Source of the DNA: Rhina ancylostomus
Taxonomy: Eukaryota
Reading direction: 5' to 3'
Assembly: GCA_030265395.1 (NCBI GenBank)
Contig: JARFYF010000112.1
Coordinates: forward strand, 75,960,747 to 76,024,746
Length of the DNA: 64,000 bases
Part shown: piece after piece, positions 61,501-64,000 of the stretch
How positions within the stretch are numbered: the first letter of the stretch is position 1
How the letters are laid out: every line of letters starts with the position of its first letter
Made by a program: the position numbers

Positions 61501-64000
61501 CAGAGTCCATGCTGATCATCAAGTACCCCTTTCCATTAATCCTATACTAATCTCATTTTGTTCTCCCTACATTCCCTTTGACTCCCCCAAGGTACCATCA
61601 CCCACCTGCACAATTACATGGTGAATTACTCTATTAGCCTGCATGCAAGCTGCCACAGGANNNNNNNNNNNNNNNNNNNNNNNNNNNNNNNNNNNNNNNN
61701 NNNNNNNNNNNNNNNNNNNNNNNNNNNNNNNNNNNNNNNNNNNNNNNNNNNNNNNNNNNNGCCACAGGAAAAAAGTGAAAACTCCACACAAACAACACTG
61801 GATTGGTCAGGATTGAACCTGGGTTTCCAGAGCTGCCTTCTGGTCAATGGGTGCTGATAAACCCCTCTTCAGGGTGGCATACTTTACAGGAGGAGTCACT
61901 GGATTTTCCTTTCTCCTGTACAGTGGCACTAAAATCAATTGTAATCGAATAAAATCATTTTATATTTATTTCTATTTTGAACTGTTTTCAACACTGCATA
62001 GAGTAGCTGAGAACTTGTTGGGAAAATCTCTGAGGGACAGAATTAATGATCACTTGGAAAGGCAGGGACCGATCAGAGAAAGCCAGTATGGCTTTATTAA
62101 GGGCAAATTTCGTCTGACCAATCTGACTGTATTTTTTGAGTAAGTAGCAAAGTGCATTGATGAGGGCAGTGCAAAGGATGTGGTTTACATGGATTTAGTA
62201 AGGTCCTCAAAAAGGCCCCATGTTGGATACTAGTCCAAGAGGTTAGGGCCCATGGGATCCAGGGCAAGCTGGCAAATTGGATCCAAAATTAGCTTAGCAA
62301 CAGGAGACAGAGGGTGATGGTAGATGGCTGTTTTTGTGATTGGATGTCTGTGACTGGTGATGTTCCACAGGCAATGGTGCTTGGACCCTTGCTGTGTCTA
62401 ATATACATGAATGATTTGGACGTGGATGTAGGAGGCATGATTAGTAAGTTCACAGATTTATTGATCTACTTCAATCATGTAGATTGATAGTGTGGAGGGT
62501 AGTCTTATGCTACAGGTTGATGTCAATGTGTTGGTGGAATGAGCTGAGAAATGGCAGATGGAGTTTAATAAATGAGGTGATTCATTTTGGGAGTACTAAT
62601 GAGGCTAGGACATATGCCAAGAATGGTAAGGTCAGAGGCAGTACTGAGGAACAGAGGGACCTTGGTGTGCAAGTCCAATGATTCTTGAAGGTGGCAGTGC
62701 AAGTTGATGGTGTGGTTAAGAAGGCACATGGGATACTAGCCTGGGATGGAGCATTGCAGTCATGAGGAGATTCTGGAGAGGCAAAATCTATCTTCCATGG
62801 AGAGGAAGATGTTAAGAGGGAACATGACTGAAGGATATAAAATTGAGGGGTATTGATTGGGTAGACTGTAGGAAACTTTCTTTCCTTTTCAAAGATGATT
62901 AAAGCAAGAGGACATAGATTTCGGGTGAGGGGTAAGAGATTAAGAGAGAATGTAAGGGAGACCTTTCTCAGCCAAAGAATGGTGAGTACCTGGAATGCAG
63001 AAGTGTTTAGATATGCATTTAAATTGCCTAGGCATAGATGGCTATGGGCCAAGTGTCAGAAGATGGGATTAATACGGATTGGTGCTCACTGGTCAGTGTG
63101 GATGTGGTGAACCAAATGGCCTGTTTCCATGCTGTATGACCCTATGACTCCACAACTCATAGGTGTTGAAATTTCAGGAAGGGTGAATTGCTCAGTGCGT
63201 GATATAGTCATCCAGCTCAAATGGTACTTACATTTGTTGTGTTCAATTGACTTATTATGTAAAACTTGCAAGGTAGATTGGCAGCTGGTGATAGAAGTTG
63301 CTCAACTTTTATTTCCACGCACTCTTGTTTCTTACAGGTTATGAACACATCAATCAACAATACAGCACTGCTTCAGTATTATGTTGAACTGTGATCCTAG
63401 GTTATGAACTCAAGTTCTGCTGTTGTGTGAATGATCACTTCAAAATTATAAAGGAGCCTTTAGAATAGGTCATGTGGTCATTATCAGAATATCACTGGAC
63501 TGTGAGGTCTTCACTGGGATTTACATTTTCCTTGAATGCTGTAAAGATTCTACATGTTGAACATAATTGTATTAAGAATTTAATTTATATTGTAATGATG
63601 CAATGCAATGTACATTTGTAGTGCAACACTTAAAATCAATTATTTGTGTTCATTCTGTAGGCTTTCTGATCTTTTGAAGTACAGAATATTTCCACAATAT
63701 GATTTCAGAGAGACACTAAAAAAATCAATAAAATGTGACTGAGTGAAAGGTTGCTGAAGGGAAAGGAGGCTATGGAAAATGGAATTAACAACACAAGGAC
63801 ACCAGACTGCATTGTGAACGGCTCTGTTAAGAAAGCTTCTGACATCTATTGCACTGCAGGAAACAGAAACAAAATGAAGTTCTGTGAATCCAATCCCTAC
63901 CAGATGAAATTCAGTGACAGTGATGGCAGCAGTGAGACAGAGGAAAAAACCCGAGTGGTAACATTCTTCAGTTCCTTTTTTAAAAAAACAAGAGCCTTTG

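What the first reader, a model, noticed from the sequence alone, without database searches (positions are those of the whole stretch)
63643..64000. ORF absent from the track at the window end: possible long-isoform first coding exon of ARHGEF9
Seen: splice acceptor (AG 63659-63660), 111-nt leader with an in-frame ATG-TGA, good Kozak ATG at 63772, and 76 open codons with an acidic patch (SDSDGSSETEE) and an amphipathic/basic stretch RVVTFFSSFFKK. Established: ARHGEF9 lies downstream of AMER1 in the same orientation in human, and the paralogous pairs are AMER2-SPATA13 and AMER3-ARHGEF4, both GEFs having long N-terminally extended isoforms. From memory (unverified), the long ARHGEF4 N-terminus has a similar VVxFxxSFFK stretch. 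Inference: an ancestral long collybistin isoform not described in mammals.
Basis: partly seen in the sequence, partly recalled or inferred. Interest (0 to 1): 0.65.

Follow-up and report, generated by a model that had tools for sequence, protein, structure and literature searches.

The report
Long collybistin isoform's first coding exon
The open reading frame at the end of the window is the real start of a long, N-terminally extended form of the synaptic exchange factor collybistin (ARHGEF9); annotation pipelines already predict this form in many vertebrates, some mammals included, but I found no paper that studies it.

Summary
ORF length and the acceptor-like AG are no more than chance gives. 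Homology makes the ORF real: searched alone, the 76 residues match the N-terminus of a 464-aa record P0002 (74% identity, full length, E 5e-27) and NCBI-predicted long ARHGEF9 proteins of the ray Narcine bancroftii (81%). tblastn places these only at 63772-63999. In the relatives the frame runs on for about 460 codons and then joins collybistin SH3-DH-PH exons, so the exon must continue past the window. An AMER gene lies 51 kb upstream on the same strand.

Long ARHGEF9 models with the same N-terminal motifs are listed for sharks, rays, gar, bichir, lungfish, amphibians, reptiles, birds, 6 marsupials and 7 placentals. A profile of their N-termini finds 59 of 65 long SPATA13 proteins and 0 of 65 reversed decoys. 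The isoform is therefore ancestral.

"Not in mammals" is wrong at the level of predicted models. The ARHGEF4 claim stayed untested. This is an annotation gap, not a new kind of gene. No paper describing the isoform was found.

The parts
63641..63660 (+). Putative polypyrimidine tract and AG acceptor (AG 63659-63660)
   Evidence: Sequence read. 13 of 18 pyrimidines, T at -3, G at +1. Not beyond chance: 124 of 4002 AGs are as good, and 27% of random positions have one 20-200 nt upstream. No RNA evidence.
63661..63771 (+). Putative 111-nt 5' leader with two upstream ATGs: a uORF at 63699-63719 (6 codons plus TAA, other frame) and ATG-TGA at 63733-63738 (in frame)
   Evidence: The in-frame TGA at 63736 means the coding frame cannot enter from upstream within this exon.
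63772..64000 (+). Start codon and first 76 codons of the large N-terminal coding exon of long ARHGEF9 (collybistin). The frame is still open at the window end.
   Evidence: P0001. P0002 74% identity over 100% of the query, E 5.4e-27; Narcine ARHGEF9 X4 81% over 55%; tblastn hits only here. Met1, Asn16 and Gly17 are conserved in 90% or more of 37 aligned sequences.
63874..63876 (+). Second in-frame ATG (Met35), the start used by the Narcine and Chiloscyllium models
   Evidence: Identity to P0002 is 21 of 34 residues before it and 35 of 42 after it.
63913..63945 (+). Acidic Ser/Thr-rich patch SDSDGSSETEE (residues 48-58)
   Evidence: Kept in the elasmobranch relatives as SDGSSE(A/T)EE or GDGSSDAEE. 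Bony vertebrates have a variable, partly acidic stretch here.
63952..63987 (+). Basic-hydrophobic motif RVVTFFSSFFKK (residues 61-72)
   Evidence: Aligns with RIWNFVSRRK (tetrapod long ARHGEF9), GIWRIITRKK (gar) and KILRFFSTPKKR (SPATA13).
63958..63959 (+). GT of a donor-like GTG|GTAACA inside the ORF; probably not used
   Evidence: All four elasmobranch relatives read through this point in frame.
9040..12608 (+). Context: AMER-family coding exon (taken as AMER1), 51 kb upstream on the same strand, with three short N runs left untouched
   Evidence: Pfam PF09422, E 3.1e-75. tblastn of the AMER1-derived part of Narcine P0008 gives 73-78% identity at 9040-9934. The paralogue assignment rests on synteny with ARHGEF9 (PMC2949870 passages), not on a tree.

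Best explanation
The ORF is the start codon and first 76 codons of the large exon (about 460 codons in relatives) that encodes the N-terminal extension of a long ARHGEF9 (collybistin) isoform.

Shown:
- The peptide is homologous, from Met1 onward, to the N-termini of predicted long ARHGEF9 proteins of sharks and rays. Those proteins continue into the collybistin SH3-DH-PH core.
- The exon lies downstream of an AMER gene on the same strand.
- The same N-terminal module is present in long ARHGEF9 models of all jawed-vertebrate classes and in long SPATA13.
- The extension has no Pfam family and no solved relative. It is predicted to be almost without fixed structure.

Inferred:
- An upstream promoter between AMER1 and the classical ARHGEF9 first exons gives a transcript. 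In it, this exon is spliced through one to three small exons onto the SH3 exon, replacing the short classical N-terminus. The result is a protein of about 1040-1180 residues.
- The extension is a disordered regulatory or targeting arm built of short conserved motifs. Within the window these are NG, MKFCE, the acidic patch and the basic-hydrophobic stretch. Just past the window they are RPxS(M/L)I and an amphipathic SF(M/L)DR(V/L)RS(F/L)K+LKS helix.
- The arm changes where or when the exchange factor acts. This is by analogy with the 625-residue extension of SPATA13 isoform I, which is mostly coil and drives nuclear localisation.
For: -: P0001 alone finds 3 proteins at E<=0.01 among 11 candidates. 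These are P0002 (E 5.4e-27, 74%, 100% coverage), Narcine 'ARHGEF9 isoform X4' (P0003) and Narcine 'SPATA13 isoform X3' (P0004), the last two from the same contig.
- these two, Cetorhinus P0005 (starts MENAINNS) and Chiloscyllium P0006 carry 560-690 residues before the SH3.
- their SH3-DH-PH is 88-95% identical to tetrapod ARHGEF9, against 63-70% to SPATA13.
- best solved relatives are collybistin 4mt7/4mt6 (about 950 bits) against ARHGEF4 2pz1 (664 bits). Nothing matches residues 1-591.
- tblastn hits occur only at 63772-63999 (E 1.9e-30 for P0002, 1.6e-22 for P0005).
- Met1, Asn16 and Gly17 are conserved in 90% or more of 37 sequences.
- long ARHGEF9 models with the same motifs occur in lungfish, gar, bichir, paddlefish, amphibians, turtles, squamates, birds, 6 marsupials and 7 placentals.
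- a profile of 21 bony-vertebrate N-termini hits 59 of 65 named SPATA13-type N-parts at E<=1e-3 and 0 of 65 reversed decoys.
- AlphaFold2 of P0002 with 37 rows gives mean pLDDT 52 and pTM 0.21, with four short helices only and none in residues 1-76.
- no Pfam family for the ORF; AMER family upstream.
- passages of PMC7233598 on the SPATA13 1277-residue isoform.
Against: - Only 76 codons are visible. The rest is inferred from other species.
- There is no RNA evidence of any kind for this genome. Every relative is a computational gene model or an unnamed ORF, so none shows expression either.
- The profile built from bony vertebrates alone reaches the window ORF at only E 0.021. It is the best of 1576 ORFs and the next is 3.2. 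The deep homology of these 76 residues is therefore carried by the elasmobranch intermediates.
- The acceptor is not statistically distinctive, and the leader holds two upstream ATGs.
- By my count from the listing, 20 of the 111 proteins carry the extension without SH3, DH or PH domains and are named 'uncharacterized' or 'hypothetical'. The exon may therefore also, or instead, make a stand-alone product.
- Two of the four elasmobranch models start at Met35 rather than Met1.
Confidence: 0.85

Rival explanations
1. The exon encodes a stand-alone protein made of the extension only. It ends in or after this exon and is not joined to the ARHGEF9 catalytic exons in this species.
For: - By my count, 20 of the 111 listed proteins have no SH3, DH or PH Pfam domain and are 646-1047 aa 'uncharacterized' or 'hypothetical' proteins. 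Examples are Trichosurus P0129, Dromiciops P0130, Molossus P0208, Spea P0125 and Crotalus P0180.
- P0002 and P0123-P0128 are extension-only ORFs.
Against: - 91 of the same 111 models join the extension to SH3-DH-PH.
- The elasmobranch models nearest to the window all do.
- Extension-only entries are what ab initio callers and ORF finders give for a single large exon.
Confidence: 0.07
2. It is a decaying relic: the exon is homologous but no longer expressed or no longer intact in this species.
For:
- Placental copies are very diverged, at 31-37% identity to a marsupial query against 37-42% for turtles. The exon can therefore drift.
Against: - The 76 codons are intact.
- Identity to other elasmobranchs is 58-81%.
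- The conserved Met1, Asn16, Gly17 and the basic-hydrophobic motif are kept.
Confidence: 0.05
3. It belongs to a paralogue (SPATA13 or ARHGEF4) and not to ARHGEF9.
For: NCBI names two of the closest relatives 'spermatogenesis-associated protein 13' (P0004, P0006).
Against: - P0004 shares its contig with models named ARHGEF9.
- The catalytic part of P0004 and P0006 is 88% identical to tetrapod ARHGEF9 against 63-66% to SPATA13.
- The true SPATA13 of Callorhinchus (P0066) has a clearly different N-terminus.
- An AMER gene lies upstream, as published for ARHGEF9.
Confidence: 0.02
4. It is a chance open frame in non-coding DNA.
For: Open frames of this length are common here (52 in the window), and the opposite strand is open too.
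Against: tblastn gives E 1.9e-30 and 1.6e-22 to independent relatives, on this strand and in this frame only.
Confidence: 0.01

Closest known systems
NCBI-predicted long ARHGEF9 isoforms of elasmobranchs (Narcine bancroftii X3/X4, Cetorhinus maximus arhgef9a X2, Chiloscyllium punctatum X1)
   Same: They share the N-terminal sequence, at 57-81% identity over the visible part. Cetorhinus shares the start (MEN...). The acidic patch and the basic-hydrophobic motif are kept. In Narcine an AMER1-derived segment is even fused to ARHGEF9 in one model (P0008).
   Different: The window shows only 76 codons. Narcine and Chiloscyllium models start at the equivalent of Met35. Two of the models are named SPATA13, although their catalytic part is collybistin.
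SPATA13/ASEF2 isoform I (1277 residues; PMC7233598, passages read)
   Same: It is a paralogous exchange factor with a long, mostly coil N-terminal extension made from upstream exons. The first roughly 120 residues are homologous to those of long ARHGEF9: NG motif, basic-hydrophobic motif, RPxSMIL and SFKKLKS.
   Different: It is a different gene. The window's own 76 residues show no direct significant match to SPATA13. Nuclear and kinetochore localisation is shown only for human SPATA13 and is merely an analogy here.
Classical collybistin isoforms CB1-CB3, with or without SH3 (PMC5673238, passages read)
   Same: Same gene and the same SH3-DH-PH core in the relatives.
   Different: The described isoforms differ only in the C-terminus and in the presence of the SH3. 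None has a 560-690-residue N-terminal extension. The solved collybistin chains begin just before the SH3.
ASEF (ARHGEF4) APC-binding region plus SH3 (3nmz chain D; consensus XGGG[D/E]X-hydrophobic-hydrophobic in PMC4860839)
   Same: Long ARHGEF9 relatives carry (G/D)AEQLLVNKLISGG directly before the SH3. This aligns with GGEQLAINELISDG of ASEF.
   Different: This part lies outside the window. The glycine that the paper calls the most conserved is alanine in ARHGEF9, so APC binding is doubtful and untested.

Membership tests
Long (N-terminally extended) ARHGEF9/collybistin isoform | Sequence homology of the ORF to the N-terminus of long ARHGEF9 proteins | tested here: met
   E 5.4e-27 and 2.8e-11; tblastn E 1.9e-30 and 1.6e-22, only at 63772-63999.
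Long (N-terminally extended) ARHGEF9/collybistin isoform | Position downstream of AMER1 on the same strand | tested here: met
   AMER Pfam hit at 9530-10843. Narcine AMER1-derived sequence matches 9040-9934 on the + strand. Synteny as in PMC2949870. The AMER paralogue was not resolved by a tree, and the Atlas look-up was uninformative.
Long (N-terminally extended) ARHGEF9/collybistin isoform | The frame continues for about 460 codons as one large exon | not testable with these tools
   The window ends at codon 76. Relatives P0002 (464 aa) and P0123-P0128 (448-757 aa) are extension-only ORFs.
Long (N-terminally extended) ARHGEF9/collybistin isoform | Splicing of the exon to the SH3-DH-PH exons in this genome | not testable with these tools
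   No downstream sequence and no RNA data. No collection of eukaryotic DNA was on hand.
Long (N-terminally extended) ARHGEF9/collybistin isoform | Conserved N-terminal motifs (Met1, NG, basic-hydrophobic stretch) | tested here: met
   A1: Met1, Asn16 and Gly17 conserved in 90% or more of 37 sequences. Alignments. A profile of bony vertebrates alone gives only E 0.021.
SPATA13/ASEF2 long isoform (as orthologue) | Catalytic part of SPATA13 type in the nearest relatives | tested here: not met
   88-95% identity to ARHGEF9 against 63-70% to SPATA13.
Shared N-terminal module of long ARHGEF9 and long SPATA13 (paralogy) | Profile-level homology of the first ~150 residues | tested here: met
   59 of 65 named SPATA13-type N-parts at E<=1e-3, 0 of 65 reversed decoys. 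6 were missed. One search gave 66 of 73 with unnamed hits included.
   No long ARHGEF4 protein appeared among the 120 rows listed or the 111. No paper was found.
Any Pfam family or solved structure | Match of the ORF or of the extension | tested here: not met
   Pfam: 0 families at E<=1. PDB: no match to residues 1-591 of P0004 at E<=1e-10. Atlas: no usable hit for residues 1-470 of P0005.
APC-ARM binding motif XGGG[D/E]X-hydrophobic-hydrophobic | Motif present before the SH3 of long ARHGEF9 (in relatives, outside the window) | tested here: inconclusive
   E-Q-L-L is kept, but the fourth position is Ala, not Gly.

The most novel reading that the evidence does not exclude
The long collybistin isoform is a functionally distinct, ancestral form of the ASEF/collybistin family that predates the vertebrate genome duplications. 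Its disordered arm, built of motifs shared with long SPATA13, would send the exchange factor to places other than the inhibitory postsynapse. By analogy these could be the nucleus, mitotic structures or membranes. The segment before the SH3 would keep a weakened ASEF-type APC-binding site, next to a neighbouring gene (AMER1) whose product also binds APC. The arm would be decaying or lost in many placentals, which would explain why collybistin research, done in rodents and humans, never met it.
Probability: 0.2. Interest if true: 0.55.

Novelty: new member of a known kind. Interest (0 to 1): 0.33.

Why it matters
For this genome it is an annotation repair: a conserved coding exon, and with it an ARHGEF9 promoter region, lies about 51 kb downstream of AMER1 and is missing from the track.

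More broadly, the collybistin literature I could read describes isoforms that differ only at the C-terminus and in the SH3. Yet gene models across jawed vertebrates, some mammals included, carry a 560-690-residue N-terminal arm homologous to that of SPATA13 isoform I.

If the long form is expressed, studies of collybistin at inhibitory synapses and of ARHGEF9 disease variants may be missing a product. The three AMER-ASEF-type gene neighbourhoods would also share one more ancestral feature.

Tried and rejected
- **Pfam on the ORF:** nothing.
- **Rfam on the whole window:** nothing.
- **ESM Atlas, two calls:** the AMER C-terminal half gave scores of 0.80-0.84, with AMER3 clusters second and third behind a growth-hormone-receptor cluster. 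This is a lead only and does not settle the paralogue. The extension of P0005 gave no usable hit.
- **The listing of cluster members for the unnamed P0123-P0128:** I classed them by local BLAST against named hits instead. All are ARHGEF9-type extensions.
- **GT at 63958 as exon end:** this would have made RVVTFFSSFFKK intronic. Rejected, because all four elasmobranch relatives read through it.
- **Bony-vertebrate-only profile against the window ORFs:** marginal (E 0.021). It is kept as evidence against.
- **AlphaFold2 of the extension:** low confidence throughout, so no fold search was made.
- **Literature:** searches found no paper on a long collybistin or long ARHGEF4 isoform. One search was badly chosen and returned unrelated papers.
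- **Complex prediction:** not used. APC is not among the references offered, and no binding claim is made.
- **dN/dS and comparison of the leader and acceptor across species:** not possible, because no eukaryotic DNA collection was on hand.

Full report
**Observation.**
- AG at 63659-63660, behind a moderately pyrimidine-rich tract.
- A 111-nt stretch, 63661-63771.
- ATG-TGA at 63733-63738, in frame with the ATG at 63772.
- ATG 63772 with G at -3 and G at +4.
- 76 open codons to the window end (P0001), with SDSDGSSETEE and RVVTFFSSFFKK.

**Chance.** These features alone are not beyond chance.
- 52 of 6715 N-free open stretches in the window reach 87 codons. The opposite strand is open here too.
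- 124 of 4002 AGs are as good as this one.
- 27% of random positions have such an AG 20-200 nt upstream.

**What it is.** The window is not human. Its two coding regions are closest to elasmobranch proteins. The ORF was searched by itself as a single exon.

P0001 found 3 proteins at E<=0.01 among 11 candidates:
- P0002, a 464-aa record from an unnamed source (74% identity over the whole query, E 5.4e-27).
- Two NCBI models from one Narcine bancroftii contig, 'ARHGEF9 isoform X4' (1038 aa) and 'SPATA13 isoform X3' (1140 aa), at 81% identity from Met35 on.

Their sequences, with Cetorhinus 'arhgef9a X2' (starts MENAINNS...) and Chiloscyllium 'SPATA13 X1', show 560-690 residues of extension followed by SH3-DH-PH.
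- That catalytic part is 88-95% identical to tetrapod ARHGEF9 and 63-70% identical to SPATA13.
- Its best solved relatives are collybistin structures.
- The genes are therefore ARHGEF9 whatever the automatic names say.

tblastn of these proteins against the window hits only 63772-63999, with E 1.9e-30 for P0002 and 1.6e-22 for Cetorhinus. The relatives read straight through the GT at 63958. RVVTFFSSFFKK is therefore coding, and the exon must run on past the window.

**Context.**
- An AMER-family exon lies at 9040-12608 on the same strand (Pfam E 3.1e-75).
- One Narcine model, 'ARHGEF9 X6' (P0008), begins with about 330 AMER1-like residues that match 9040-9934 at 73-78% identity. The two genes are therefore neighbours in the same orientation in that ray as well.
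- The passages I read in PMC2949870 say that ARHGEF4/9 neighbours AMER3 and AMER1.
- I take the AMER gene as AMER1 on synteny. No tree was made, and the Atlas look-up did not help.

**Distribution.** A search with residues 1-680 of the Narcine protein gave 840 hits, of which 120 were listed. A search with residues 1-600 of the Tasmanian devil protein gave 111 hits. Together they list long ARHGEF9 models of about 1000-1530 residues for:
- sharks, rays, lungfish, gar, bichir, paddlefish and sturgeon;
- tarpon, frogs, salamanders, caecilians, turtles, squamates and birds;
- 6 marsupials;
- 7 placentals (free-tailed bat, Przewalski's horse, beaver, pika, pipistrelle, pocket mouse, pocket gopher).

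No primate and no mouse or rat appeared. Given the limits of the word-based search, this shows nothing either way.

The N-termini align from Met1. In an alignment of 37 sequences, Met1, Asn16 and Gly17 of the window's part are kept in 90% or more.

The window's own 76 residues are only marginally recognised by a profile built from 21 bony-vertebrate N-termini. That profile gave E 0.021, the best of 1576 window ORFs, with the next at 3.2. The strongest motifs, RPxSMIL and SF(M/L)DRVRSFKKLKS, lie just past the window end.

An exhaustive phmmer of P0002 against 1.84 billion representatives found only 9 proteins. By local BLAST all are ARHGEF9-type extensions.

**Ancestry.** The bony-vertebrate ARHGEF9 profile finds 59 of 65 named SPATA13-type N-terminal parts at E<=1e-3 and 0 of 65 reversed decoys; 6 were missed. 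With unnamed hits included the count was 66 of 73.
- The third paralogue, ARHGEF4, stayed untested.

**How it likely works.**
- Shown: the extension has no Pfam family and no solved relative for residues 1-591. AlphaFold2 gives mean pLDDT 52 and pTM 0.21, with four short helices and none in residues 1-76.
- Inferred: it is a disordered regulatory or targeting arm of short motifs, made from an upstream promoter, that replaces the short classical N-terminus.
- The nearest studied case is SPATA13 isoform I. Its first 625 residues are mostly coil and are nuclear when expressed alone (passages of PMC7233598).

In the relatives, the segment before the SH3 aligns with the APC-binding region of ASEF in 3nmz. 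However, the glycine that PMC4860839 calls the most conserved is an alanine. APC binding is therefore open.

**Against my reading.**
- Nothing here shows expression. All relatives are predictions.
- By my count, 20 of the 111 models carry the extension alone.
- Two of the four elasmobranch models start at Met35.
- The acceptor is unproven.

**Novelty.**
- The collybistin paper I read in passages describes isoforms that differ in the C-terminus and in the SH3 only (PMC5673238).
- Full-text searches found no paper on a long collybistin isoform. For most listed papers I saw only the listing. I read passages of PMC8412110, PMC11752127 and PMC7649087, and they are unrelated.
- The isoform is nonetheless already in public protein sets for more than a hundred species.
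- The finding is therefore a missing annotation of a known, unstudied predicted isoform, and not a new kind of gene.

**Unchecked.**
- The next window, any RNA data, dN/dS and the leader and acceptor in other species.
- Long ARHGEF4 and the cluster names of P0123-P0128.
- The supplements of PMC2949870.
- The human state of this exon, which was left alone on purpose.

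Noticed in passing
window 9930-9941 (GT at 9935-9936), inside the AMER coding exon: A consensus donor CAGAG|GTAAGG sits exactly where the Narcine model 'ARHGEF9 isoform X6' (P0008) leaves AMER1 (...FETSCTE) to join the pre-SH3 exon of ARHGEF9. The window reads ...FETSGTE|VRK. This may be a conserved AMER1-ARHGEF9 read-through transcript, or a gene-model artefact.
   Followed up: partly
window 63699-63719: A second upstream ORF lies in the putative leader (ATG plus 5 codons and TAA), in a different frame from the main ORF.
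   Followed up: yes
window 63640-63999, minus strand: The opposite strand is also open for 119 codons over the same stretch. It was not searched on its own.
   Followed up: no
window 9233-9273, 9520-9529, 10844-10853: Three short N runs lie inside the AMER coding exon. They were left as they are, and the exon was scanned in three pieces.
   Followed up: no
window 1877, 8180, 15702, 25122, 36302, 44281, 52571 (about 90 nt each); 1434-1709, 3834-4119, 33078-33248: Two families of short interspersed repeats at 78-89% identity, in both orientations, seen in a self-comparison. None lies in 63000-64000.
   Followed up: partly
window 37738-37833 and 37934-38029; also 30520-30595, 49152-49261, 50548-50656: A 96-nt direct repeat, 99% identical, flanks the 100-N run at 37834-37933, as at an assembly gap. 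Copies of one element abut three other N runs.
   Followed up: no
relatives P0003 versus P0004 (Narcine), after ...TEIQPKA: The two Narcine isoforms differ by an optional block of about 100 residues between the large exon and the PATCRPPPP... exon. P0003 also has a short insert before LISGG. The long form therefore has splice variants of its own.
   Followed up: no
relatives, segment before the SH3 (e.g. P0004 residues about 619-640): (G/D)AEQLLVNKLISGG aligns with the APC-binding GGEQLAINELISDG of ASEF in 3nmz chain D. The published consensus glycine is alanine here.
   Followed up: partly
listing: Placental copies of the extension are 31-37% identical to the marsupial query, less than turtle copies at 37-42%. 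This suggests faster change in placentals. No primate, mouse or rat model was listed.
   Followed up: no
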